Positions 7,458 to 58,994 of a DNA stretch of 64,000 nt are shown here, piece by piece. The stretch lies in the sequence record OZ035771.1. The stretch is one strand, 5' to 3'. This DNA comes from Phapecoctavirus DIJ07P2. Positions within the stretch are counted from its first letter, which is position 1, and each line of letters opens with the position of its first letter. The notes below the pieces were generated by a model, which worked only from the letters and a program-made list of their open reading frames with translations, was not told the origin of the DNA and made no database searches. The translations under genes were made by a program, and so were the position numbers.

Positions 7458-7489
7458 CAGCGTTCAACCTCATACACTTGAAACAAACC

Positions 7490-8422
7490 TTAGAAGCAAT
7501 GCAGGAAGTTTCTACCATATTGCAGTCCAATAGGGGCAAATGGAATATCATCGTCGAAGTCCATTGGAGGTTCTTCTTGATTACTTGGAGTTGGTTCTGG
7601 TTGTGGTTCAGGTTTCTTAACTTCTTTCTTCTCTTCTTTCTTAGGCTGTTCTGCGGAACCACGAATGGCAGCAGCAACTTTATCAGACAGAGCCAGAACT
7701 TTACGAGCAGAATCAATCAGATCTTCTACAGAGACAGTCTTAATGGTATGGTCTTTACAAGCATTGAGAATAGCGTGACCAACAGATGCCCCAAGATCAT
7801 AATCATTAATATCAACACCACGAGATTCAGCAACTTCCGATTTCAGCGTGACGGTTGCAGATTGAACAACCCCAGCGATATCGAAAGCATCGCCTTTAAC
7901 ACCATTACGAATCAGTTCCAGTGCACCATTTACTGCGTGACCAGTTTCCAGACCTACAGTATCACGTTTTTTATAGGACTGCTTAGGAGCAGCATCGTTG
8001 GAACCTTTATTGCCAGAAGATTTGTTAGACTTCTGAACACCATCGGTAGACAATACTGTAATACGAGATTTTTTAGTATTGTAGTAAGTCTTACCGCCTT
8101 TATTATCAACGCGATCAATATCAATACTTACTTCTACACCTTTTTCAATAGTGATCCAATTATCACCTTCTTTGACTTGCAGGTTTTCATAACCTTCTTT
8201 CAGTTCAATGTCACCAAGAGAAATCCAAACACCTTTCTCATCTGGTTTAGCACCTTTCTCTTTCAGAACAAGAGAAGCTCGGTGAGTTGAAACAATCGTT
8301 TTTCCTTCCCAATGAAAAGTTTTAGGTTCAGCGAATTTATCCAGTTTAACGTAGTCTACGATACCAGTTGCATAAGTTACGGTTTTGCCTTTACGATCAG
8401 TTTCAGTATTAATTACGGACAT
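7490..8422 (-). CDS. SSB-like ssDNA-binding protein candidate carrying an E. coli SSB-type acidic tail motif
   Basis: ATG 8422 with SD gaggag; Lys/Glu/Pro-rich linker then EEPPMDFDDDIPF (last 9 residues as I recall the E. coli SSB C-terminus), followed by 15 further codons before the stop. Confidence 0.45.
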   Translation of the reverse strand: MSVINTETDRKGKTVTYATGIVDYVKLDKFAEPKTFHWEGKTIVSTHRASLVLKEKGAKPDEKGVWISLGDIELKEGYENLQVKEGDNWITIEKGVEVSIDIDRVDNKGGKTYYNTKKSRITVLSTDGVQKSNKSSGNKGSNDAAPKQSYKKRDTVGLETGHAVNGALELIRNGVKGDAFDIAGVVQSATVTLKSEVAESRGVDINDYDLGASVGHAILNACKDHTIKTVSVEDLIDSARKVLALSDKVAAAIRGSAEQPKKEEKKEVKKPEPQPEPTPSNQEEPPMDFDDDIPFAPIGLQYGRNFLHCF

Positions 8423-51348: not shown

Positions 51349-51406
51349 TTGACGTTCGCCAGGTGGCGGCATAATATTTACCACGTAGGGCGGCAATGGT
51401 GCCGCT
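51349..51406 (+). promoter_or_regulatory. early promoter + 5' stem-loop cassette, unit 1
   Basis: TTGACG, N16, ATAATA; ccacgtaggg then stem-loop ggcggcaATGGtgccgct; ATG 51427. Confidence 0.55.
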
Positions 51407-51426
51407 CATTATTTGGAATTAAGATC

Positions 51427-51624
51427 ATGGCAACATTGCACATTGTGGCGAAAGCTGGACAAATCAACGTAGTAGTAAACGGTTTTACTGAGTTCAGTCA
51501 TCCCCAGGATGATCATGAAACGGTTTTATCTTTCATTGATTCACTGTTAGAAATGGGAGTCATTACAGAAGACCAGCACGCTACAAAATGCAAACGCGTT
51601 AATCAGATTGCAGGAATAGAATAA
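51427..51624 (+). CDS. small early protein (65 aa)
   Basis: first ATG downstream of cassette 1; track start 51349 lies in promoter. Confidence 0.5.
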   Translation: MATLHIVAKAGQINVVVNGFTEFSHPQDDHETVLSFIDSLLEMGVITEDQHATKCKRVNQIAGIE

Positions 51625-51630
51625 AAAGTA

Positions 51631-51690
51631 TTGACAACAACCAACAACCTGATAAGATGTATCACATAAGGCGGGAAATGGTTTCCCGCT
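51631..51690 (+). promoter_or_regulatory. early promoter + 5' stem-loop cassette, unit 2
   Basis: TTGACA, N16, TAAGAT; stem-loop ggcgggaaaTGGtttcccgc; SD gagag; ATG 51714. Confidence 0.6.
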
Positions 51691-51713
51691 CACAACAGAA
51701 GAGAGAAATCATC

Positions 51714-51986
51714 ATGGCATCATATAGCGCAACAATGATCGTAGCTGGTACCACTGGTAAACCTATGAGCGGTGGCGGATCTTTCGCTAATATTAATATT
51801 GATGGGCGTTTATCCCTGGACGCAGCGATCACCGTGGCGCGGGAAACATTTAAGAAAGAATGTGATTTCAACAAGCAAGATTATTTAGGTTTTGCTATTG
51901 AAAAAACGGCGCGTTTTGTTGATTATAAAAGTCCGAAAATGGTTGATACTACACTAAAAGCGCAAGATGTAGCCTTTTTGCTTTAA
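51714..51986 (+). CDS. small early protein (90 aa)
   Basis: ATG 51714 with SD; track start 51657 lies in -10 region. Confidence 0.5.
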   Translation: MASYSATMIVAGTTGKPMSGGGSFANINIDGRLSLDAAITVARETFKKECDFNKQDYLGFAIEKTARFVDYKSPKMVDTTLKAQDVAFLL

Positions 51987-51988
51987 GG

Positions 51989-52046
51989 CTTGACATTAAC
52001 GAATAATTTGTTAATATGTTACATAAAGCGGGAACTATTCCCGCTA
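51989..52046 (+). promoter_or_regulatory. early promoter + 5' stem-loop cassette, unit 3
   Basis: TTGACA, N16, TAATAT; stem-loop agcgggaaCTAttcccgct; ATG 52063. Confidence 0.6.
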
Positions 52047-52062
52047 TTTGTAAGGTGGTAGA

Positions 52063-52320
52063 ATGTTTTACATCAAATTAAAAGGTCACGTGATCGCGTT
52101 CAAGGATAACGCTTTTTACAGATTAGCAAAATATGCGTTAATACATCCCCATTATGTTTATATAAGGGGGCGTGATGAAATAAATATCTTTGATCAAACA
52201 ACATGCGAGAACATCGAGATCCGCAAGGTTGGCGTACGTGACTATCGTACATCTTTCTACCCTTGCAAGGATTCAGCAAGTCTTTTTAAAGTATGCCAAT
52301 TGTTGAAAAAAGGTGGTTAA
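52063..52320 (+). CDS. small early protein (85 aa)
   Basis: track ORF; SD aaggtgg. Confidence 0.5.
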   Translation: MFYIKLKGHVIAFKDNAFYRLAKYALIHPHYVYIRGRDEINIFDQTTCENIEIRKVGVRDYRTSFYPCKDSASLFKVCQLLKKGG

Positions 52321-52321
52321 T

Positions 52322-52879
52322 ATGGGCCGCGAATATGTGATCCAGTCTTGGGTAAAACATGAAGCAGATGATCCGCGCATCATTCCTGATTATCTTGTCG
52401 ATGAATCCACGGGCTATAGCGGGGAGCAAATAGGTAACAGATTAGCACGTAGTAACGGCAACGTAAAAGCGCGTTATGTGCGCCCTGGCTGGCTGGCAAA
52501 TGGTAACGCTGATTTATCCAGTGCGGAAGATGCGAGCGACGGCGCGAAAGATAATCCTTTGTACAAAGTTGATCCGGCTTTTCGTGTCCTGGATGAATAC
52601 CCCAGCAAGATAGCGGCGCTCGATCAGGCCCTGGAAAGTAAGCGCATCACCTGGACCGCTTACAACATGGCAAAAAACGTACTTGATGGTAAATTGATTC
52701 AAGCTGAAAGAAAATTAGCCAAAATTGCAGCCATAGCCCAGGAGGAAGACGAGGAGACAACGGAAGAGGAAGAGTACGAAGAGATCCCGCCGTTGTTGTG
52801 TGTTGATGCTTTTCCTGATTATCAGCCGACAGAGGAAGAAAAAAGGATCGCACTAGAAAACTTTGAAAATAGTCTTTGA
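52322..52879 (+). CDS. early protein (185 aa) with acidic C-terminal region
   Basis: ATG 52322 with SD aaaggtgg; EEDEETTEEEEYEE tract; second cistron of unit 3. Confidence 0.5.
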   Translation: MGREYVIQSWVKHEADDPRIIPDYLVDESTGYSGEQIGNRLARSNGNVKARYVRPGWLANGNADLSSAEDASDGAKDNPLYKVDPAFRVLDEYPSKIAALDQALESKRITWTAYNMAKNVLDGKLIQAERKLAKIAAIAQEEDEETTEEEEYEEIPPLLCVDAFPDYQPTEEEKRIALENFENSL

Positions 52880-52934
52880 CATATCGCCGCCACTGGCATA
52901 ATATTTACCACGTAGGGCGGCAATGGTGCCGCTC
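52876..52934 (+). promoter_or_regulatory. early promoter + 5' stem-loop cassette, unit 4
   Basis: TTGACA, N16, ATAATA; stem-loop gggcggcaATGGtgccgct; ATG 52962. Confidence 0.55.
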
Positions 52935-52961
52935 ATAGTGAAATTATGCAAGAGGCTTACA

Positions 52962-53057
52962 ATGATTAATAAAGGAAATAGCTTGACGGTTGGAACGATT
53001 AACGCTATCATTCTCGCCGTTCCATTTTGGGTTGTAGTAGCGGCTATTATTTTCTAA
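52962..53057 (+). CDS. hydrophobic micro-protein (31 aa)
   Basis: only ORF between cassettes 4 and 5; SD agagg; MINKGNSLTVGTINAIILAVPFWVVVAAIIF. Confidence 0.35.
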   Translation: MINKGNSLTVGTINAIILAVPFWVVVAAIIF

Positions 53058-53066
53058 AAAATATTC

Positions 53067-53127
53067 TTGACAACGTTTTTTAATCTGATAAGATGTATCA
53101 CATAGGGCGGCGGAATACTTCCCCGCC
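53067..53127 (+). promoter_or_regulatory. early promoter + 5' stem-loop cassette, unit 5
   Basis: TTGACA, N16, TAAGAT; stem-loop ggcggcggaatacttccccgcc; ATG 53149. Confidence 0.6.
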
Positions 53128-53148
53128 AAAACAAAAAAGGGTAACACA

Positions 53149-53511
53149 ATGAGCAAGCAAATCAATACTATCATGTTTAATCTGGTATCTTTCCGCGATG
53201 ATATGAAAAATTTACCACGTGAAACGGTTGATATTCATGTTTCAGCTTATCGCGCCCTTATTGACATGTTACCGCTAAAACGTGATCAACATGCCGCTAA
53301 TATGATGCTTAATGCTATGCTTAAAAAGATGATTCAAACGGATCTCACCCTGGCATATGAGTATCAAGGGCGCTTATATGCAAATTACAACAGAGCGGTA
53401 CCTGGTCTGGGAAGTACTGAAGAGTTGCACGGCTTAAACCTGGATCAAAACACTTGGGATAGTATGCGCCGCGTTATGGTATGGGCCGAAAGCGGTAAAA
53501 TTTACGAATAA
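53149..53511 (+). CDS. small early protein (120 aa)
   Basis: track ORF; SD aaggg. Confidence 0.5.
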   Translation: MSKQINTIMFNLVSFRDDMKNLPRETVDIHVSAYRALIDMLPLKRDQHAANMMLNAMLKKMIQTDLTLAYEYQGRLYANYNRAVPGLGSTEELHGLNLDQNTWDSMRRVMVWAESGKIYE

Positions 53512-53517
53512 AAACGG

Positions 53518-53574
53518 TTGACACTGTTTTTTATTCTGGTATAGTTTATCACGTAGGGCGGCAATGGTGCCGCC
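53518..53574 (+). promoter_or_regulatory. early promoter + 5' stem-loop cassette, unit 6
   Basis: TTGACA, N16, TATAGT; stem-loop gggcggcaATGGtgccgcc; ATG 53595. Confidence 0.6.
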
Positions 53575-53594
53575 AACAATAAAAGGTTAACATC

Positions 53595-53774
53595 ATGACC
53601 ATCATTGCAAAAACTGAGATTATAGGTTTAGATTCGATCCTCCTGGCTTATGAGGAAACTTTAAAAATGTATGTAGTGACCTATGGTGATTATGTGCGTG
53701 AATACGAATACATTGATCTTGCTTTCGAATGTTACATTCGCCAGGTCAATAAAGCCTATAACGATTATCGTTAA
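53595..53774 (+). CDS. small early protein (59 aa)
   Basis: ATG 53595 with SD aaaagg; stop 53772-53774; below track cut-off. Confidence 0.45.
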   Translation: MTIIAKTEIIGLDSILLAYEETLKMYVVTYGDYVREYEYIDLAFECYIRQVNKAYNDYR

Positions 53775-53793
53775 AAGTTTTAGTCTTATACTA

Positions 53794-53846
53794 TTGACAA
53801 TGAGTGATAGTATAAGCATAATAACTTTTATCGGGAATACTTCCCA
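53794..53846 (+). promoter_or_regulatory. early promoter + short 5' stem-loop cassette, unit 7
   Basis: TTGACA, N17, CATAAT; short stem gggaaTACttccc; ATG 53871. Confidence 0.5.
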
Positions 53847-53870
53847 CTAACCAAAAAAGAGAGTAATATC

Positions 53871-54236
53871 ATGGCTATTAATATCAATGTTTCCTCTTAT
53901 GCTACCCTGGCTGACACGGCTAAAATTGAATTATCCAGCATTGAGGCGGTGCATATTAGCGCCCGTCGTTGGTTTCAACAGTCCTACGGTAACACATATT
54001 TTTCTTTAATGGTTGACGTTGAGATCGGCGGTAAACTGATCGAGGTGGTTAACGTTCCGTTTCAATATGGTTATGGTGATCATTTTGATACCGTCGCCCT
54101 GGAAGAATTTAGCAAGGTTATTAATATGGAAGGTAAAGAGTTTTCACGCGGCGCGTATCTTTCCCGTTTTTGCCGTGATAATGGGATCACTGTATACAGT
54201 CATGCGAGCGATGTTAAACGTAAAAAAGATTTATAA
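53871..54236 (+). CDS. small early protein (121 aa)
   Basis: track ORF; SD agagag. Confidence 0.5.
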   Translation: MAININVSSYATLADTAKIELSSIEAVHISARRWFQQSYGNTYFSLMVDVEIGGKLIEVVNVPFQYGYGDHFDTVALEEFSKVINMEGKEFSRGAYLSRFCRDNGITVYSHASDVKRKKDL

Positions 54237-54242
54237 AAAGCA

Positions 54243-54302
54243 TTGACAGCACGAATAAAAAGAGTAAACTGTATTACATAGAGAGCGGGAACACTTCCCG
54301 CC
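54243..54302 (+). promoter_or_regulatory. early promoter + 5' stem-loop cassette, unit 8
   Basis: TTGACA, N16, TAAACT; stem-loop gcgggaaCACttcccgc; ATG 54327. Confidence 0.6.
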
Positions 54303-54326
54303 TCACTGAAAAAAGAGATTAACATC

Positions 54327-54566
54327 ATGGCTAAATCAAAAATGTTCTTAGGTCACAAAAATAAAACTCATTGGAATGTAAGCCTTTGGATTAATAACGA
54401 TGAATCGTTATATCGGTTGGCGAAAGAATTTATCGCCGCTAATACTAATCGTAATGATGCTGCCCGTGATATGATGTTATTCCTGGAACAAACTGGACAA
54501 GATAAAACTCCAGACGGTTTCAAGTATAGCACTACAGCGATCCGCGCCGCGATGGTTGGAATGTAA
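54327..54566 (+). CDS. small early protein (79 aa)
   Basis: track ORF; SD agagat. Confidence 0.5.
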   Translation: MAKSKMFLGHKNKTHWNVSLWINNDESLYRLAKEFIAANTNRNDAARDMMLFLEQTGQDKTPDGFKYSTTAIRAAMVGM

Positions 54567-54579
54567 AGGAGATATAAAA

Positions 54580-54660
54580 ATGAAACATCGTTCTACCTAT
54601 CTAACAAAACGTTTTAGCTTAGATCATAAATTGGGCTATTACGGAAGAAATAGAAAATAA
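54580..54660 (+). CDS. basic micro-protein (26 aa)
   Basis: ATG 54580 with strong SD aaggag 7 nt upstream; MKHRSTYLTKRFSLDHKLGYYGRNRK; second cistron of unit 8. Confidence 0.3.
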   Translation: MKHRSTYLTKRFSLDHKLGYYGRNRK

Positions 54661-54661
54661 T

Positions 54662-54722
54662 TTGACAACGTTTAAAATTAGTGTAAGATGTATCACATAG
54701 GGCGGGAAGTGGTTTCCCGCCA
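54662..54722 (+). promoter_or_regulatory. early promoter + 5' stem-loop cassette, unit 9
   Basis: TTGACA, N16, TAAGAT; stem-loop ggcgggaagTGGtttcccgcc; ATG 54744. Confidence 0.6.
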
Positions 54723-54743
54723 ACAACAGAGAGATTAAAGATT

Positions 54744-54971
54744 ATGGCTATCAATATTGTTCGCGTATCCGGCACCGTTGGCACTTCCCAAGTTATTGCA
54801 GTTGTAACAAACAAAAAGATTAATGATGTATGTGAAAGCTTGAATAAGTGGGCTATTGTTAATTTTGGGGAATATGCAAGCGTCGAGTACATCGAATCCT
54901 ACCAGGTGCCAACCATCAGCCTAACCGATCTCAACGTTGATCGCTTGTTGTGCCTGGATGAATTAATCTGA
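54744..54971 (+). CDS. small early protein (75 aa)
   Basis: track ORF; SD agagat. Confidence 0.5.
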   Translation: MAINIVRVSGTVGTSQVIAVVTNKKINDVCESLNKWAIVNFGEYASVEYIESYQVPTISLTDLNVDRLLCLDELI

Positions 54972-54981
54972 AAAAAGATTG

Positions 54982-55039
54982 TTGACACCGGAAAGAAAAA
55001 GAGTAGAATATATTACATAGGGCGGCAATGGTGCCGCTC
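54982..55039 (+). promoter_or_regulatory. early promoter + 5' stem-loop cassette, unit 10
   Basis: TTGACA, N16, TAGAAT; stem-loop gggcggcaATGGtgccgct; ATG 55063. Confidence 0.6.
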
Positions 55040-55062
55040 ACAACAGAAGAGAGATTATCACG

Positions 55063-55278
55063 ATGGCTAATATCCGCACTTTACTGAAAAATGCAAGTCA
55101 AGTTTTATTTTCAGATGATGAGTATTTCAATAAAGACATTACAGGCGTGAAAAATTTAAAAGACGTGAAGGATGTTATCGGTATTCGTGGATCTTTACGT
55201 AAAGGTGACTACTATGGTAACAAGGTGCAATATAAACTGTCAAAGGATTACAATTTTACTTTGACAATTATTTCATAA
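55063..55278 (+). CDS. small early protein (71 aa)
   Basis: track ORF; SD agagag. Confidence 0.5.
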   Translation: MANIRTLLKNASQVLFSDDEYFNKDITGVKNLKDVKDVIGIRGSLRKGDYYGNKVQYKLSKDYNFTLTIIS

Positions 55279-55284
55279 AACCGC

Positions 55285-55346
55285 TTGCAATACTGCAAAA
55301 ATAAAGTAAACTGTATTCATCAAGGCGGTGGAATAGCCAACCGCCT
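55285..55346 (+). promoter_or_regulatory. early promoter + 5' stem-loop cassette, unit 11
   Basis: TTGCAA, N16, TAAACT; stem-loop aggcggtggaatagccaaccgcct; ATG 55370. Confidence 0.5.
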
Positions 55347-55369
55347 AACAAAGAGAAGAGGAAAACATC

Positions 55370-55537
55370 ATGATCACTTTCGCTACCCGTGAAGCCGCTC
55401 GCAACGTTGCACGTAAAGTTAACGCCGCCAACCTGGGCGCTACGCTTAAAGCTCCGGTAAAAGATGAATCAGGCAAATGGATCTTCCCTGGTCTGCGTCA
55501 TGCTGACAAGTTAGGTACTTTAAGCCTTAAAAAATAA
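55370..55537 (+). CDS. small early protein (55 aa), basic
   Basis: ATG 55370 with SD gaggaaaa; stop 55535-55537; shares MITFA N-terminus with next gene; below track cut-off. Confidence 0.45.
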   Translation: MITFATREAARNVARKVNAANLGATLKAPVKDESGKWIFPGLRHADKLGTLSLKK

Positions 55538-55540
55538 TCG

Positions 55541-55580
55541 TTGACTTTTCGTTATAGCGCCTTACAATGGGCGCTATAGA
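55541..55580 (+). promoter_or_regulatory. early promoter with -10 embedded in palindrome, unit 12
   Basis: TTGACT, N16, TACAAT lying in loop of agcgccTTACAATGggcgct; ATG 55613. Confidence 0.45.
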
Positions 55581-55612
55581 GAAGAGAAACCACTACTAAC
55601 AAGGAAACCATT

Positions 55613-55834
55613 ATGATCACTTTCGCTATTGTCGCCGTTGTTGCTGGTCAAGTTTACGTAAATGAGACATTTACTACAGAAGACAAGGCAGCAGGAGATA
55701 TAACCGCCGTTTACAATGAGTGCAAGGCAGTAGAAAGGATGTTAGCGCCTTGTATGCTAATGAGTGAACGCCAGGACGGAATAACAGTATTTACTAACAT
55801 TGGAACAGGGTACCAAATGGTAGTAACAAAATAA
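55613..55834 (+). CDS. small early protein (73 aa)
   Basis: track ORF; hydrophobic N-terminus MITFAIVAVVAG. Confidence 0.5.
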   Translation: MITFAIVAVVAGQVYVNETFTTEDKAAGDITAVYNECKAVERMLAPCMLMSERQDGITVFTNIGTGYQMVVTK

Positions 55835-55837
55835 AGC

Positions 55838-55896
55838 TTGACACCGATTTAATTTTTAGTAAACTGTTACACGTAGGGCGGGAATAGTTCCCGCTC
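55838..55896 (+). promoter_or_regulatory. early promoter + 5' stem-loop cassette, unit 13
   Basis: TTGACA, N16, TAAACT; stem-loop gggcgggaaTAGttcccgct; ATG 55914. Confidence 0.6.
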
Positions 55897-55913
55897 AAAA
55901 AGAGAGAAAGATC

Positions 55914-56267
55914 ATGAAAGCACAAAATGCAATTAAAGAGTACATCCTTGCCGCTATCGGTTTTAATGATTACGGTATTACAACAGAAAAAGAGAAGATC
56001 GCGGAATTGATGCGCCGTTTTAATTCCGAGTACTGGTACCCTGATAACCAATCACGTTTTAATTATAGTATTGTTAAAGCACTTGCATCATGGTTACAAG
56101 GTTTGCCATCAGATATTAATATCGCTTTCGAATATTGGGAAGTGGATCGCTTGTTAACATCCTGGGGATACATTAAAGAGAATAGCAGCGATGATAAAAT
56201 CCAACGAGAAAGGGAAAATTATTGGCTTTATATTGCAGGCGTGATCCTTGCTTGCTCTTATGAATGA
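55914..56267 (+). CDS. small early protein (117 aa)
   Basis: track ORF; SD agagag. Confidence 0.5.
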   Translation: MKAQNAIKEYILAAIGFNDYGITTEKEKIAELMRRFNSEYWYPDNQSRFNYSIVKALASWLQGLPSDINIAFEYWEVDRLLTSWGYIKENSSDDKIQRERENYWLYIAGVILACSYE

Positions 56268-56273
56268 TAAACC

Positions 56274-56327
56274 TTGACAATTTTACAAAACAGTTTAAAT
56301 TAACAATATAGCGGCAATGGTGCCGCT
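56274..56327 (+). promoter_or_regulatory. early promoter + 5' stem-loop cassette, unit 14
   Basis: TTGACA, N16, TAAATT; stem-loop agcggcaATGGtgccgct; ATG 56347. Confidence 0.5.
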
Positions 56328-56346
56328 CATATAAAGAGGAAACAAA

Positions 56347-56493
56347 ATGAATACATCTAATCGCGCAGAAAAAATTCAATCTTCCAAGATCCGCAAGGCC
56401 TGGAACGAGGAAGTGATCCGCAAAGGCGACAAGCGTAATAAAACAAAGCGCGGGAAGAGTGACAAATATAATTGGATGGATTTAGAGGATTAA
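56347..56493 (+). CDS. basic small protein (48 aa)
   Basis: ATG 56347 with SD aagagg; Lys/Arg-rich; stop 56491-56493; terminator follows. Confidence 0.45.
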   Translation: MNTSNRAEKIQSSKIRKAWNEEVIRKGDKRNKTKRGKSDKYNWMDLED

Positions 56494-56500
56494 CATAACA

Positions 56501-56528
56501 AGGGCGCACCAAGCGCCCTTTCTTTTTA
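56501..56528 (+). terminator. rho-independent terminator (conserved caagggcgcacNaagcgccc type)
   Basis: gggcgcaccaagcgccc hairpin followed by tttctttttat. Confidence 0.6.
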
Positions 56529-56548
56529 TATGCAGAGGATAAACAAAG

Positions 56549-56734
56549 ATGACTTTAAACGAGCTTAAAACAGCCTACAACGCAACATTAAAAATAGCCG
56601 TGCGTTACCGTGATGCGTATGGTTTTATCGCGCAGGGCGTGATCCTGGGCTTTTCTGACGATGGTTTGATCTATGTTGATGCACATCACAACAAGGTTAA
56701 ACCTGAAAACGTCATTAATATAAAATATCTTTAA
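56549..56734 (+). CDS. small early protein (61 aa)
   Basis: track ORF; no cassette of its own (follows terminator). Confidence 0.4.
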   Translation: MTLNELKTAYNATLKIAVRYRDAYGFIAQGVILGFSDDGLIYVDAHHNKVKPENVINIKYL

Positions 56735-56740
56735 AAATGG

Positions 56741-56800
56741 TTGACACCATAACCGGACCTGTTAAACTGTATTACATCAGGCGGGGAATAGTTCCCCACC
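56741..56800 (+). promoter_or_regulatory. early promoter + 5' stem-loop cassette, unit 15
   Basis: TTGACA, N16, TAAACT; stem-loop aggcggggaaTAGttccccacc; ATG 56820. Confidence 0.6.
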
Positions 56801-56819
56801 ATACAAAAAGGTAAATATT

Positions 56820-57026
56820 ATGATCACCGCAAAACAAGAAAAAATCATTATCGACGTTGCAGCCGTTGCCGCTATCGCTATTATTGGATCTTATTATGAT
56901 ACCCGTTTCCCGTCGGCTATGCATGAGGTCGCCGCCGTTGCATCAGTTGGCGTACTGTTTTACGTTGGTAAACGCTATTTATCACCAATGATTAACAAGC
57001 TGACACCGTGGAAAAATAAAGGTTGA
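56820..57026 (+). CDS. small membrane protein (68 aa)
   Basis: track ORF; hydrophobic VAAVAAIAIIG and VAAVASVGVLFYV segments. Confidence 0.5.
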   Translation: MITAKQEKIIIDVAAVAAIAIIGSYYDTRFPSAMHEVAAVASVGVLFYVGKRYLSPMINKLTPWKNKG

Positions 57027-57080
57027 TCCTGTTTTACATTATGTTATAGTTATCGTGTAGGGCGGCAATGGTGCCGCGCC
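57023..57080 (+). promoter_or_regulatory. early promoter + 5' stem-loop cassette, unit 16
   Basis: TTGATC, N16, TATAGT; stem-loop gggcggcaATGGtgccgcg; ATG 57098. Confidence 0.5.
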
Positions 57081-57097
57081 CCTTTGAGGATGCAATC

Positions 57098-57382
57098 ATG
57101 AGTAAAGCTAACACCGTGCTAATGTTTTCCCTGATTAATGATCTCGCTTACTTGTCCAACATGACGCAGGAGGGTAACACATTAACGGCAACATTCACCA
57201 ATAAGCTTGACCGAGTGATCATCGTCTCACTGAAAACAGTTAGTAAAGGCTTTTACTTGTTAGCTTATCATTGTATCACTGATACCGATGAGACAAGCCA
57301 GGACTATAGCGCCCCTTTCCCTGAATCAATGGCACGGGAGATCATCGCCGCCGTTGTAAATGATGGTTTGTTTACTGCATAA
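57098..57382 (+). CDS. small early protein (94 aa)
   Basis: ATG 57098 with SD gagga; track start 57068 lies within stem-loop. Confidence 0.5.
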   Translation: MSKANTVLMFSLINDLAYLSNMTQEGNTLTATFTNKLDRVIIVSLKTVSKGFYLLAYHCITDTDETSQDYSAPFPESMAREIIAAVVNDGLFTA

Positions 57383-57400
57383 AATAATTTAGAAAAAGGC

Positions 57401-57458
57401 TTGCAATCATTTTGAGATAGTGTATATTTAATTCATAGGGCGGCGGGAATAGTTCCCA
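57401..57458 (+). promoter_or_regulatory. early promoter + 5' stem-loop cassette, unit 17
   Basis: TTGCAA, N16, TATATT; stem-loop gggcggcgggaatagttccc; ATG 57481. Confidence 0.5.
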
Positions 57459-57480
57459 AAGCAAACGAGAGGATTACACG

Positions 57481-57600
57481 ATGAGCAAGTACACAGTAGA
57501 ATACACGGTAGAGAATCCGGCAGTATCCGAAGGTAAAAAGATGACATTTACCATCAGTATAATCGCTTTCGTTGTCACTATCTTATCAATCATCTTATAA
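57481..57600 (+). CDS. micro-protein (39 aa) with C-terminal transmembrane helix
   Basis: ATG 57481 with SD gagagg; MSKYTVEYTVENPAVSEGKKMTFTISIIAFVVTILSIIL; stop 57598-57600. Confidence 0.4.
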   Translation: MSKYTVEYTVENPAVSEGKKMTFTISIIAFVVTILSIIL

Positions 57601-57610
57601 GGTGCACACC

Positions 57611-57772
57611 ATGAAAACAACAGATATTATCAAAGAGATCGCCCTTGCCGCTGGCGTTGAGATCGAGGAAGTGATCGCGCTCAATCTTACAGAAAACGAT
57701 CTGCGCAACTATGAAGCGGAAAGCGTGAAAGCAAGTGGCGCGGTCCTGGCATATAATCCGGCTAACAAATAG
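57611..57772 (+). CDS. small early protein (53 aa)
   Basis: ATG 57611 with SD aaggtg, preferred over track start 57572 which overlaps previous micro-ORF. Confidence 0.4.
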   Translation: MKTTDIIKEIALAAGVEIEEVIALNLTENDLRNYEAESVKASGAVLAYNPANK

Positions 57773-57773
57773 T

Positions 57774-57830
57774 TTGACAAGCTGAATCAACCTGATAAGA
57801 TGTATCACATAGGGGCGACAAGCGCCCCGC
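57774..57830 (+). promoter_or_regulatory. early promoter + 5' stem-loop cassette, unit 18
   Basis: TTGACA, N16, TAAGAT; stem-loop ggggcgACAAgcgcccc; ATG 57850. Confidence 0.6.
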
Positions 57831-57849
57831 CTAACAGAGAGATAGAATC

Positions 57850-58128
57850 ATGACCATCGCCAAATTATCCGCCGAAGAAATCGAACAAGTGCTAACTACT
57901 AACCTGGAACAATGGAAACGTGAGGCAGATATACAATCAGCACAATGGCTTAACGAGAAGTTAACACCGGATGATCTGAGTAAGATTATAGATCCTCAAT
58001 TCTACGAAGATATTCACGACACCGTTTTAAGCGTCGAGGATGTACTTGATAAGCATTATATTGCTACTGATTTGCAGGTTTACGGGCGTAAAAACTTTAT
58101 TACTATTCACGACATTTACAATAACTAA
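57850..58128 (+). CDS. small early protein (92 aa)
   Basis: track ORF; SD agagag. Confidence 0.5.
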   Translation: MTIAKLSAEEIEQVLTTNLEQWKREADIQSAQWLNEKLTPDDLSKIIDPQFYEDIHDTVLSVEDVLDKHYIATDLQVYGRKNFITIHDIYNN

Positions 58129-58136
58129 GGGATAAC

Positions 58137-58265
58137 ATGAATCCGAAAGATATGCAAGCATGGAAAGGGTACGACGATCTAAGCGCCTTGCGCAATAAGT
58201 CAAGCCGTAACCTTAGACGGTTAGAAGCAAAGAAAAAGAAAAAACAGTTTGACAAGTCCGCTTAA
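58137..58265 (+). CDS. Lys-rich micro-protein (42 aa)
   Basis: ATG 58137 with SD aaggg; ...RNLRRLEAKKKKKQFDKSA; 3' end overlaps next -35. Confidence 0.35.
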   Translation: MNPKDMQAWKGYDDLSALRNKSSRNLRRLEAKKKKKQFDKSA

Positions 58266-58305
58266 TCTGGTAAAGTGTATCTCGTAGGGCGGCAATGATG
58301 CCGCT
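58249..58305 (+). promoter_or_regulatory. early promoter + 5' stem-loop cassette, unit 19
   Basis: TTGACA, N16, TAAAGT; stem-loop gggcggcaATGAtgccgct; ATG 58326. Confidence 0.6.
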
Positions 58306-58325
58306 CACAAGAAGAGAGAAAAATC

Positions 58326-58610
58326 ATGAAGATCACAAAAAGCCTAACTAATTATGCAGCACGTCGCGGATTATGCTTAACCGTTGAAAACTCAGGGAAA
58401 GAAGACTTTTTGTGTTTTTGGGAGCTTGAAAATGATTGCGAGTGGATGTTTTCTTATTCTATCTGCGAAGATCAAAACGGTTGTTTGTTAACCTGGCGCG
58501 GTAATATCTATTTACCGGAAGAAATTAAAGAAGAGTTACCAGGTACGATCATGACAGAGAGACAGCTTAAGGAAGTGATCAATTTTGTAGGGCAAAACAT
58601 TAAAAAATAA
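58326..58610 (+). CDS. small early protein (94 aa)
   Basis: track ORF; SD agagag. Confidence 0.5.
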   Translation: MKITKSLTNYAARRGLCLTVENSGKEDFLCFWELENDCEWMFSYSICEDQNGCLLTWRGNIYLPEEIKEELPGTIMTERQLKEVINFVGQNIKK

Positions 58611-58612
58611 TT

Positions 58613-58673
58613 TGACAGCACGCAAACAACGTAGTAAAGTTTACCACATAGGGCGGCGGAATGGTCCACCGCT
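58613..58673 (+). promoter_or_regulatory. early promoter + 5' stem-loop cassette, unit 20
   Basis: TTGACA, N17, TAAAGT; stem-loop ggcggcggaATGGtccaccgc; ATG 58696. Confidence 0.6.
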
Positions 58674-58695
58674 CACAACAGAAGAGAAACAAATC

Positions 58696-58866
58696 ATGAT
58701 CCCGACTATGTTTTATGTATCGCGCAAAGGTCACAATATTTTTTGGTCTGAAGATTTAAATGAAGCCATGACGTTTGCCCGTGATCGTGTTGCTATCGGT
58801 GGCGTTAACATCACCGTAACCGATGAAAATGGCATTGAATACTATAACGGCGACGATGAAGAGTAA
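58696..58866 (+). CDS. small early protein (56 aa)
   Basis: ATG 58696 with SD agaga; track start 58612 lies in promoter. Confidence 0.45.
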   Translation: MIPTMFYVSRKGHNIFWSEDLNEAMTFARDRVAIGGVNITVTDENGIEYYNGDDEE

Positions 58867-58871
58867 TTAAT

Positions 58872-58893
58872 AAGGCGGGGAATACTTCCCGCC
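58872..58893 (+). promoter_or_regulatory. cassette-type GC stem-loop located downstream of a gene (terminator or RNA processing/stability element)
   Basis: ggcggggaatacttcccgcc directly after stop 58864-58866, not followed by a clean T-tract. Confidence 0.35.
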
Positions 58894-58932
58894 ACGCAGT
58901 GAATTTTCCGTTTGGGAAGTAAAAAATAAATC

Positions 58933-58994
58933 TTGACGATAATTTGTTATCTGATAGAATGTATTTCGTAGGGCGGGGCAATAAGGCAAGCCCA
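58933..58994 (+). promoter_or_regulatory. early promoter cassette with weak stem-loop, unit 21
   Basis: TTGACG, N16, TAGAAT; gtatttcgtagggcgggg then weak gggc..gccc stem; ATG 59011. Confidence 0.5.

What the first reader, a model, noticed from the sequence alone, without database searches (positions are those of the whole stretch)
52962..58265. Unannotated micro-ORFs inside the early array (26-59 aa), several membrane-targeted or highly basic
Between annotated ORFs there are SD-supported reading frames below the 60-aa track cut-off: 52962-53057 (31 aa, one TM helix), 53595-53774 (59 aa), 54580-54660 (26 aa, basic), 55370-55537 (55 aa, basic), 56347-56493 (48 aa, Lys/Arg-rich), 57481-57600 (39 aa, C-terminal TM helix), 58137-58265 (42 aa, KKKKK tract). 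Each is the only ORF following its own promoter cassette or sits between a gene and the next cassette. Very small phage proteins of this kind often act as inhibitors of host enzymes or as membrane-active peptides.
Basis: seen in the sequence. Interest (0 to 1): 0.45.

Follow-up and report, generated by a model that had tools for sequence, protein, structure and literature searches.

The report
Seven real small phage early genes
The seven tiny reading frames are genuine, conserved early genes of a phAPEC8-like E. coli phage; most are already annotated as hypothetical proteins in sequenced relatives, one belongs to the T7 gp1.1 family, and none has a known function, so the finding is correct but ordinary.

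Summary
The window is a Phapecoctavirus (phAPEC8-like myovirus). They sit in an array of about 24 near-identical sigma70 promoter + 5' hairpin cassettes. All seven are intact in relatives and under purifying selection: pooled dN/dS is 0.00-0.43 against 0.10-0.44 for their larger neighbours, and wobble-position excess gives P = 2e-6 to 0.017.

They are not new. Six of the seven are routinely annotated as hypothetical CDSs in GenBank relatives, five match PHROG families, and the 48-aa ORF is a Pfam PF08200 (T7 gene 1.1 protein) member. Only the 26-aa ORF is usually missed: it is annotated in 8 of 35 records. It is identical in 33 of those 35.

Two are single-pass membrane peptides, four are strongly basic (net +6 to +8), and one is acidic with a confident AP2/WGR-like mini-fold. 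No function could be assigned to any of them. The 42-aa form is a stop-loss variant of a 36-aa gene. Presence and absence in relatives follows clean module indels at cassette boundaries.

Verdict: real small early accessory genes, already known as a class. Low interest.

The parts
52962..53057 (+). m31: 31-aa single-pass hydrophobic peptide (MINKGNSLTVGTINAIILAVPFWVVVAAIIF), the sole ORF after the cassette whose -35 is at 52876
   Evidence: ORF and SD AAGAGG. KD mean 2.63 over residues 13-31. Intact in 15 of 17 loci, dN/dS 0.27. Wobble excess P=4e-4. tblastn finds it in 108 phage records, and it is annotated as a 96-nt CDS in many. No PHROG or Pfam hit. The window and ESCO5 have G5 where the other relatives have E5.
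53595..53774 (+). m59: 59-aa acidic (net -4), Tyr-rich mini-domain, the sole ORF after the cassette at 53518
54580..54660 (+). m26: 26-aa basic peptide (net +7), the second gene after the 79-aa gene 54327-54566, ending 1 nt before the next -35 (54662)
   Evidence: SD AAGGAG 7 nt upstream. Found in 35 phage records, 33 with the identical peptide; annotated in only 8. The Klebsiella phage copy has about 10 synonymous changes and 2 conservative changes, F12Y and R25K. dN/dS 0.00, P=1e-4. It is a clean 86-nt presence/absence module. No family hit.
55370..55537 (+). m55: 55-aa basic protein (net +7), the sole ORF after the cassette at 55285
56347..56493 (+). m48: 48-aa Lys/Arg-rich protein, a member of the T7 gene 1.1 protein family; the sole ORF after the cassette at 56274 and followed by the terminator
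   Evidence: Pfam PF08200, 49.8 bits against a cut-off of 21, E=4.9e-13. phrog_2490. 14 of 15 database homologues carry PF08200. The alignment with T7 NP_041961 shares EK..R..E..KG.K.NKTKR...K..W. 129 phage records. dN/dS 0.20, P=1e-5.
56500..56530 (+). Intrinsic terminator after m48 (8-bp GC stem plus T-run), the only canonical terminator in the stretch
   Evidence: The same site is annotated as a terminator in phage Schickermooser.
57481..57600 (+). m39: 39-aa tail-anchored membrane peptide, the first of two ORFs after the cassette at 57401
   Evidence: phrog_10979 'membrane protein', E=4.2e-22. KD mean 2.56 over residues 21-39. Always 39 aa. Only 36-39% identical in Justusliebigvirus but with the same architecture. 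dN/dS 0.43, P=1.5e-3. 66 phage records.
57611..57772 (+). c53: 53-aa gene immediately downstream of m39.
   Evidence: Annotated as a 162-nt CDS in relatives. dN/dS 0.43.
58137..58265 (+). m42: basic peptide (net +8) with a KKKKK tract, the second gene after the 92-aa gene 57850-58128. Here it is a 42-aa stop-loss form of a gene that is 36 aa in 8 of the 11 comparison loci carrying it and 43 aa in the other 3. Its last 6 codons run through the -35 of the next promoter (58249).
   Evidence: phrog_31652, E=2.6e-28 over residues 1-36. Most relatives have TAG where the window has CAG at codon 37. ORF lengths in the comparison loci are 36 or 43 aa. Only KKP 3954 shares the 42-aa form. dN/dS 0.05, P=0.017. 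59 phage records.
51349..58990 (+). Array of about 24 promoter cassettes that drive the small genes: TTGACA, a 16-17-nt spacer, TAnnnT, a GC-rich hairpin of -12 to -17 kcal/mol placed at the predicted 5' end of the mRNA, then a purine-rich SD

Best explanation
The seven frames are genuine protein-coding early genes of a phAPEC8-like (Phapecoctavirus) coliphage. Host sigma70 RNA polymerase transcribes each from one of a series of near-consensus promoters. The transcripts begin with a stable GC-rich hairpin and carry a strong purine-rich ribosome-binding site, so even a 26-59-aa frame forms a complete expression unit, either alone or as the second gene of a two-gene unit.

The products fall into three physical classes:
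- two single-pass membrane peptides (m31, m39);
- four strongly basic peptides (m26, m55, m48, m42), of which m48 is a member of the T7 gp1.1 family;
- one acidic, well-folded beta-sheet-plus-helix mini-domain (m59).

The most likely role is dispensable host-interaction (takeover or accessory) proteins that act by binding host macromolecules or membranes early in infection. The genes are gained, lost and swapped between phages as modules bounded by the cassettes.

Shown here: the frames, their expression signals, their conservation, purifying selection, family membership and module indels. Inferred: transcription timing, translation, mRNA stabilisation by the hairpin, and every functional role.
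For: The window is identified as Phapecoctavirus, 93-96% identical to many GenBank phages.

Cassettes: 27 promoter-like sites against 15.9 +/- 3.8 in shuffles, nearly all on the + strand and directly upstream of the genes; hairpins of -12 to -17 kcal/mol follow the -10.

Conservation: all seven are intact in Phapecoctavirus and/or Justusliebigvirus loci, with fixed lengths for m59, m26 and m39. Pooled NG86 dN/dS is 0.27, 0.16, 0.00, 0.08, 0.20, 0.43 and 0.05, against 0.10-0.44 for eleven neighbouring genes of 61-121 aa. Counting each variable column once gives a wobble excess of P = 4e-4, 2e-6, 1e-4, 2e-6, 1e-5, 1.5e-3 and 0.017. Negative controls are flat except where wobble positions coincide with the sense frame.

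Public annotation and families are. gp1.1 membership is. The module indels sit exactly at stop-codon/-35 boundaries.

The rV5 paper describes the same kind of region: '88 mainly small ORFs' with consensus sigma70 promoters (PMC3606486).
Against: There is no expression evidence of any kind for this phage group: no RNA-seq, Ribo-seq or mass-spectrometry data were found.

The pooled dN/dS is not corrected for phylogeny. The comparison set for m26 and m42 is shallow (6-11 loci and few substitutions).

For m55, an antisense 43-aa frame (55345-55476) shares wobble positions, so the codon-position test alone cannot exclude it. Promoter orientation, the SD and full-length conservation favour the + strand.

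No functional homologue was found for any of the seven. Even the one named family, T7 gp1.1, has no known function (PMC7064336).
Confidence: 0.85

Rival explanations
1. The frames are chance ORFs in untranslated spacers (5' leaders or 3' tails of the cassette transcripts), and their persistence reflects only the close relatedness of the compared phages.
For: The ORFs are very short, and the region holds 126 mechanical ORFs of at least 20 aa. Many Phapecoctavirus relatives are more than 93% identical, so mere intactness is weak evidence.
Against: Substitutions concentrate at wobble positions of exactly these frames, and dN/dS matches that of accepted neighbours. The frames stay intact at 36-80% amino-acid identity in Justusliebigvirus, a Klebsiella phage, rV5-like phages and jumbo phages. 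Alternative-frame controls lack the signal. Each frame fills the whole space between an SD and the next cassette.
Confidence: 0.03
2. Some of the frames are regulatory leader or coupling ORFs whose translation matters but whose peptide does not. For example, m48 followed by the terminator and the promoter-less gene 56549-56734 could act as an attenuator, and m26 and m42 could be 3' ORFs that modulate read-through into the next unit.
For: m48 is followed 6 nt later by the only canonical terminator of the array, and the next gene lacks a cassette. m26 and m42 end at or inside the next -35.
Against: The peptide sequences themselves are conserved. m48 keeps the gp1.1 motif shared with T7 in a completely different genomic context. 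m26 is identical in 33 of 35 records despite synonymous changes. m42 has dN/dS 0.05. Leader peptides normally conserve only a few codons. No alternative anti-terminator pairing was sought.
Confidence: 0.06
3. The conservation is imposed by something other than the + strand protein: an antisense gene or a structured RNA overlapping the frames.
For: Antisense ORFs of 43-92 aa overlap several of them. The one opposite m55 shows the same wobble excess, P=2e-4.
Against: That antisense frame shares third positions with m55, so the signal is expected from m55 alone. The other antisense ORFs show no excess. The 5.6-kb finding region lies in a + strand gene block (GC skew positive from about 44 kb). 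Its promoter-like matches sit almost entirely on the + strand directly upstream of the genes, and the only canonical terminator is a palindromic stem whose T-run is on the + strand. There is no Rfam match at E<=0.1.
Confidence: 0.03

Closest known systems
Orthologous 'hypothetical protein' CDSs of sequenced Phapecoctavirus and Justusliebigvirus phages (for example ESCO13_00270, _00272, _00277, _00280, _00004 and _00006; Mt1B1_P17 QNJ49204, QNJ49202, QNJ49197, QNJ49193, QNJ49189 and QNJ49186)
   Same: Same genes at the same positions, 90-100% identical, with the same cassette context.
   Different: The window carries m26, which most Phapecoctavirus lack. It has a stop-loss 42-aa form of the usually 36-aa gene. 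It has G5 instead of E5 in m31.
Bacteriophage T7 gene 1.1 protein (Pfam PF08200, NP_041961, 42 aa)
   Same: m48 scores well above the family threshold. It has the same size, the same strong basicity and the same core motif KG.K.NKTKR...K..W.
   Different: It is encoded in a myovirus early array behind a host sigma70 promoter and followed by a terminator. In T7 the gene lies behind T7 promoters between the RNA polymerase gene and gene 1.2. Pairwise BLASTP does not detect the similarity. The family has no established function.
Small-ORF early regions of rV5-like phages (Kropinski et al. 2013, PMC3606486)
   Same: A long run of mainly small ORFs with consensus sigma70 promoters. m59 is shared with rV5-like phages at about 81% identity.
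   Different: The passages retrieved from that paper do not mention a post-promoter hairpin. Most of the individual genes differ.
T4 promoter-early stem-loop (PeSL) cassettes proposed to mediate modular gene shuffling (Arbiol et al. 2010; recalled from memory, and the only retrieved paper containing the phrase was not opened)
   Same: An early promoter plus a stem-loop repeated between small non-essential early genes. Here gene modules are gained and lost exactly at cassette boundaries.
   Different: No sequence relationship to the T4 elements was tested. Recombination at the cassettes is inferred from indel boundaries only.
Characterised small phage early effectors (T7 Gp2, Gp0.4 and Gp5.7; lambda Kil; T4 Stp, 26 aa), from general knowledge
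   Same: Size range, early expression and dispensability. They act by binding a host protein.
   Different: No sequence or fold similarity to any of them was found. The comparison is an analogy, not membership.

Membership tests
Pfam PF08200 Phage_1_1 (T7 gene 1.1 protein) - m48 | Profile HMM score above the curated gathering threshold | tested here: met
   49.8 bits against a cut-off of 21, E=4.9e-13, covering model positions 2-40 of 40. 14 of 15 close homologues carry PF08200 precomputed.
Pfam PF08200 Phage_1_1 (T7 gene 1.1 protein) - m48 | About 40-50 aa, strongly basic, with the conserved C-terminal motif NKTKR...K..W shared with T7 gp1.1 itself | tested here: met
   The alignment with NP_041961 has 15 invariant columns, including KG.K.NKTKR, K and W. 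pI 10.0, net +6.
Pfam PF08200 Phage_1_1 (T7 gene 1.1 protein) - m48 | T7-like genomic context (class II region, between gene 1 and gene 1.2, T7 RNAP promoters) | tested here: not met
   Here it is a monocistronic sigma70 unit in a myovirus. Context is not part of the Pfam definition, so protein-family membership stands.
Pfam PF08200 Phage_1_1 (T7 gene 1.1 protein) - m48 | Shared biochemical function | not testable with these tools
PHROG families 9374 (m59), 13689 (m55), 10979 (m39), 31652 (m42) | Full-length profile match | tested here: met
   E = 2.8e-36, 2.9e-36, 4.2e-22 and 2.6e-28, end to end; m42 matches over residues 1-36 only. All are of unknown function except 10979, which is labelled 'membrane protein'.
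Single-pass membrane peptides (m31, m39) | A hydrophobic segment of at least 19 residues with Kyte-Doolittle mean above 1.6 | tested here: met
   2.63 (residues 13-31) and 2.56 (residues 21-39). The hydrophobic character is kept in relatives that are only 36-39% identical.
Single-pass membrane peptides (m31, m39) | Demonstrated membrane insertion and topology | not testable with these tools
   No experiment is available, and no dedicated TM predictor is among the tools.
AP2 / integrase arm-binding / WGR-type DNA-binding beta-sheet-helix fold (m59) | Structural match of the three/four-strand sheet packed on a C-terminal helix | tested here: inconclusive
AP2 / integrase arm-binding / WGR-type DNA-binding beta-sheet-helix fold (m59) | Basic DNA-contacting surface | tested here: not met
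   Net charge -4, pI 4.5. A protein-binding role is more plausible than DNA binding.
Transcription attenuator leader peptide (m48 + terminator + 56549-56734) | Terminator between the leader ORF and a promoter-less downstream gene | tested here: met
Transcription attenuator leader peptide (m48 + terminator + 56549-56734) | Peptide sequence itself unconstrained apart from a few regulatory codons | tested here: not met
   dN/dS 0.20, and a motif conserved as far as T7.
PeSL-like mobile promoter cassettes (context of the micro-ORFs) | A repeated early promoter followed by a stem-loop between small early genes, with gene-content differences bounded by the repeats | tested here: met
   About 24 cassettes. 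The indels of m26 and of [cassette+c92] lie exactly at stop-codon/-35 junctions.
PeSL-like mobile promoter cassettes (context of the micro-ORFs) | Homology to T4-type PeSL sequences, or direct evidence of recombination at them | not tested
   No T4 PeSL sequences were compared. The resemblance is recalled from the literature.

The most novel reading that the evidence does not exclude
At least one of these peptides may be an inhibitor of a host enzyme or defence system with a target not yet described. Three are the strongest candidates: the invariant 26-aa basic peptide that annotation pipelines miss; the acidic 59-aa mini-domain shared by three unrelated coliphage lineages, including jumbo phages; and the gp1.1 homologue, which now appears in myoviruses as well as T7-like podoviruses. 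The spread of the gp1.1 family across phage families could give a handle on the long-unknown function of T7 gene 1.1.
Probability: 0.3. Interest if true: 0.5.

Novelty: already known. Interest (0 to 1): 0.2.

Why it matters
The result shows that a 60-aa cut-off hides about a third of the genes in this early array: 8 of about 23 units between 52.9 and 58.3 kb. It also shows that simple comparative tests recover them reliably.

The genes themselves are already in GenBank, PHROGs and Pfam as proteins of unknown function, so no new biology is established. Three modest leads remain:
- a 26-aa peptide that is perfectly conserved yet absent from about two thirds of annotations;
- a T7 gp1.1 family member in myoviruses;
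- a well-folded acidic mini-domain exchanged among unrelated coliphages.

Each is a cheap candidate for toxicity, pull-down or anti-defence screens.

Tried and rejected
- IMG/VR scan with the central 117-aa neighbour returned only one relative, so the comparison set was built from GenBank loci instead.
- Pfam and NCBIfam scans gave nothing for six of the seven. The NCBIfam transaminase 'hits' for m48 (16 bits against a cut-off of 375) are noise.
- Searches of the 5.8-billion-protein database for m59, m55 and m48 returned only small phage proteins with no informative names and no extra domains.
- An exhaustive HMM search with the m55 profile found only 20 clusters, all standalone small proteins.
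- A PDB sequence search with the gp1.1-family profile found nothing.
- Pairwise BLASTP of m48 against T7 gp1.1 fails (E=16). This was judged uninformative given the HMM score and the motif alignment.
- Literature searches for gp1.1 function, for transcriptomics or proteomics of Phapecoctavirus/Stephanstirmvirinae, and for PeSL returned nothing useful. They yielded only the statement that gp1.1 has no known function and the rV5 description. The retron Eco2 paper was checked and is irrelevant to these genes.
- Rfam found no RNA family in the region.
- An idea that m26 resembles the 26-aa T4 Stp peptide was dropped. The recalled sequences are not similar, and nothing was tested.

Full report
**Identity of the window**

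The 5.6-kb stretch around the finding matches 213 phage records by megablast. 47 of them cover at least 80% of it, at 93-96% identity. All the best hits are Phapecoctavirus (phAPEC8-like myoviruses of about 150 kb, subfamily Stephanstirmvirinae). A more sensitive search adds Justusliebigvirus (phi92-like), rV5-like Vequintavirinae, a Klebsiella relative and, for short segments, 350-kb jumbo coliphages. GC skew shows that the region belongs to a + strand gene block beginning near 44 kb.

**Checking the observation**

All seven intervals are open reading frames on the + strand with ATG starts and TAA stops at exactly the stated coordinates. Two of them appear in the mechanical ORF list as longer frames.
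- 52923-53057 (44 aa) starts at an ATG that lies inside the promoter hairpin.
- 54556-54660 (34 aa, TTG) overlaps the end of the previous gene.

The composition claims are correct.
- m31 (52962) and m39 (57481) each carry a 19-residue segment with Kyte-Doolittle mean about 2.6.
- m26, m55, m48 and m42 have net charges of +7, +7, +6 and +8.
- m59 is acidic (net -4, pI 4.5).

**Expression context**

A consensus scan finds 27 promoter-like sites against 15.9 +/- 3.8 in shuffled sequence. Nearly all are on the + strand immediately upstream of genes. A custom scan shows about 24 cassettes between 51349 and 58933. Each consists of TTGACA, a 16-17-nt spacer and a TAnnnT -10 box. A few nucleotides later comes a GC-rich hairpin of -12 to -17 kcal/mol, followed by a purine-rich ribosome-binding site.

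- m31, m59, m55 and m48 are each the only ORF behind a cassette.
- m26 and m42 are second genes that end at or inside the next -35.
- m39 is the first of two genes.
- The only canonical intrinsic terminator lies directly after m48 (56500-56530). It is also annotated in phage Schickermooser.

That the hairpin sits at the 5' end of the mRNA and stabilises it is inference from the spacing. It rests on the established effect of 5'-terminal stem-loops on RNase E-dependent decay in E. coli (general knowledge).

**Are the frames real genes?**

I fetched 17 related loci: Phapecoctavirus, Justusliebigvirus and one IMG/VR contig. A Klebsiella relative was added later. I then located each frame by tblastn.

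Every frame is intact wherever the segment exists. m59 is always 59 aa, m26 always 26 aa and m39 always 39 aa.

| Frame | Pooled Nei-Gojobori dN/dS | Wobble excess, each variable column counted once |
|---|---|---|
| m31 | 0.27 | P = 4e-4 |
| m59 | 0.16 | P = 2e-6 |
| m26 | 0.00 | P = 1e-4 |
| m55 | 0.08 | P = 2e-6 |
| m48 | 0.20 | P = 1e-5 |
| m39 | 0.43 | P = 1.5e-3 |
| m42 | 0.05 | P = 0.017 |

Eleven neighbouring genes of 61-121 aa give dN/dS of 0.10-0.44, the same range.

Fifteen overlapping alternative-frame or antisense ORFs served as negative controls, and 13 show no excess. The two exceptions (55345-55476 and 54614-54892, both on the - strand) are frames whose third positions coincide with those of the sense gene, so the signal is expected there. 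No Rfam family overlaps the region.

It is therefore not met, and the coding interpretation is supported. Direct expression data do not exist in the searchable literature.

**Are they unannotated?**

Only with respect to a 60-aa track. Mt1B1_P17, ESCO13, tuntematon, nieznany, TSP7_1 and others annotate CDSs of 96, 180, 168, 147, 120 and 111 nt at the corresponding positions. Five of the seven match PHROG families end to end: 9374, 13689, 2490, 10979 and 31652.

tblastn against 50,697 phage records finds the following:

| Frame | Phage records |
|---|---|
| m31 | 108 |
| m59 | 235 |
| m26 | 35 |
| m55 | 129 |
| m48 | 129 |
| m39 | 66 |
| m42 | 59 |

The exception is m26. Of the 35 records that contain it, 8 annotate it, 24 do not, and 3 have no annotation at all. 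A likely reason is that its 81 nt fall below common gene-caller length limits (my knowledge). Where it is called, it is the 105-nt TTG-extended form.

**What each gene is**

*m48* is a member of Pfam PF08200, the bacteriophage T7 gene 1.1 protein family. It scores 49.8 bits against a gathering threshold of 21. Nearly all database homologues carry the same domain. An alignment with T7 NP_041961 shows the shared motif EK..R..E..KG.K.NKTKR...K..W. Pairwise BLASTP misses it, as expected for 45-residue, compositionally biased sequences. T7 gp1.1 has no established function. One paper notes that co-expression with Ocr shut down host protein synthesis effectively (PMC7064336).

*m55* is a narrow orphan family. 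It has 20 clusters among 1.84 billion representatives, all standalone proteins of 53-85 aa, and no significant fold match.

*m31 and m39* are single-pass membrane peptides. m39 retains its architecture (a polar 20-residue head and a hydrophobic tail) at only 36-39% identity in Justusliebigvirus.

*m26* is a 26-aa basic peptide that is identical in 33 of 35 records. The Klebsiella phage copy differs by about ten synonymous changes and two conservative changes, F12Y and R25K.

*m42* is a special case. In most relatives codon 37 is TAG, giving a 36-aa product; 8 of the 11 comparison loci that carry the gene have this form, and 3 have a 43-aa form. The window has CAG and reads on for six codons (QFDKSA) through the TTGACA of the next promoter. 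Only phage KKP 3954 shares this allele, and the PHROG profile ends at residue 36.

**Modularity**

Gene content differs between relatives by clean modules.
- m26 is an 86-nt insertion or deletion between the stop codon of the 79-aa gene and the next -35.
- The [cassette + 92-aa gene] unit upstream of m42 is absent in nieznany and anhysbys. There m42 directly follows the 53-aa gene, forming an m39-c53-m42 operon.
- m59 is missing in anhysbys and PHB05, m31 is missing in PHB05 and JLBYU50, and m42 is missing from all six Justusliebigvirus loci.

This resembles the modular shuffling proposed for promoter-early stem-loop cassettes in T4-type phages. I recall that work from the literature and did not test sequence homology.

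**Mechanism and rivals**

The best-supported account is this. These are real early accessory genes, expressed as tiny monocistronic or bicistronic units from strong host-type promoters. Their products act by binding host membranes (m31, m39), acidic partners such as nucleic acids or acidic proteins (m26, m55, m48, m42), or a basic or protein partner (m59). I put 0.85 on 'real translated genes' and roughly even odds on the host-interaction role.

I rate chance ORFs, purely regulatory leader ORFs, and antisense or RNA constraints at 0.03-0.06 each, for the reasons above. The m48-terminator-promoterless-gene arrangement is the one place where a regulatory reading has structural support. Even there, the conservation of the gp1.1 motif as far as T7 argues for a functional peptide.

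**Comparison with what is known, and verdict**

The genes are orthologues of already deposited hypothetical proteins. The region type was described for rV5 as '88 mainly small ORFs' with consensus sigma70 promoters (PMC3606486). One gene belongs to a named Pfam family. Nothing here lies outside known kinds, so I rate the novelty as 'already known' and the interest as low (0.2).

Residual leads are the invariant but mostly unannotated 26-aa peptide, the presence of the gp1.1 family in myoviruses, and the cross-lineage acidic mini-domain. Each is only a lead until an expression or interaction experiment is done.

Noticed in passing
window 51349-58990 (+): About 24 near-identical promoter cassettes: TTGACA, a 16-17-nt spacer, TAnnnT, a GC hairpin of -12 to -17 kcal/mol close to the predicted transcript 5' end, then a purine-rich SD. 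The cassette at 55541 differs: an inverted repeat TATAGCGCC/GGCGCTATA straddles its -10 box instead.
   Followed up: partly
window 56500-56734: The only canonical intrinsic terminator of the array sits right after the gp1.1-like gene. The next gene (56549-56734, 61 aa) has an SD but no promoter cassette, so how it is expressed is unclear (read-through or attenuation?).
   Followed up: no
window 57611-57772 (+): An eighth sub-60-aa gene (53 aa, ATG with SD, annotated as 162 nt in relatives, dN/dS 0.43).
   Followed up: partly
window 57773-58136; L013 6350-6420; L014 5361-5431: The [promoter cassette + 92-aa gene] unit is a roughly 365-nt module. It is present in the window and Mt1B1_P17 and absent in nieznany and anhysbys, where the m42 homologue directly follows the 53-aa gene. 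The 92-aa gene alleles are very divergent (dS about 2).
   Followed up: partly
L004, L005, L009, L014, L015, L017 (relatives): Probable annotation errors propagated in GenBank. The 71-aa homologue of window 55063-55278 is labelled 'phosphoribosylpyrophosphate synthetase'. In JLBYU50 the m59 homologue is labelled 'putative IS3 family transposase' and the 79-aa gene 'putative DNA polymerase III subunit alpha'.
   Followed up: no
L007 7488-7684 (phage KMB37): The annotated 144-nt CDS (7541-7684) is in a different frame from the gp1.1-family homologue (7488-7625) that tblastn detects. This is probably a wrong-frame call.
   Followed up: no
GenBank records: Records named Campylobacter, Acinetobacter and Pseudomonas phages (for example MG065650 and OP562383) are 92% or more identical to these coliphages across the array, and OR584014 carries identical or near-identical copies of several of the small genes. 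The host labels look doubtful, or the samples may have been contaminated.
   Followed up: no
window 55345-55476 (-): An antisense 43-aa TTG ORF opposite m55 shares wobble positions with it. It therefore shows the same third-position excess (P=2e-4), which illustrates a blind spot of the codon-position test.
   Followed up: yes
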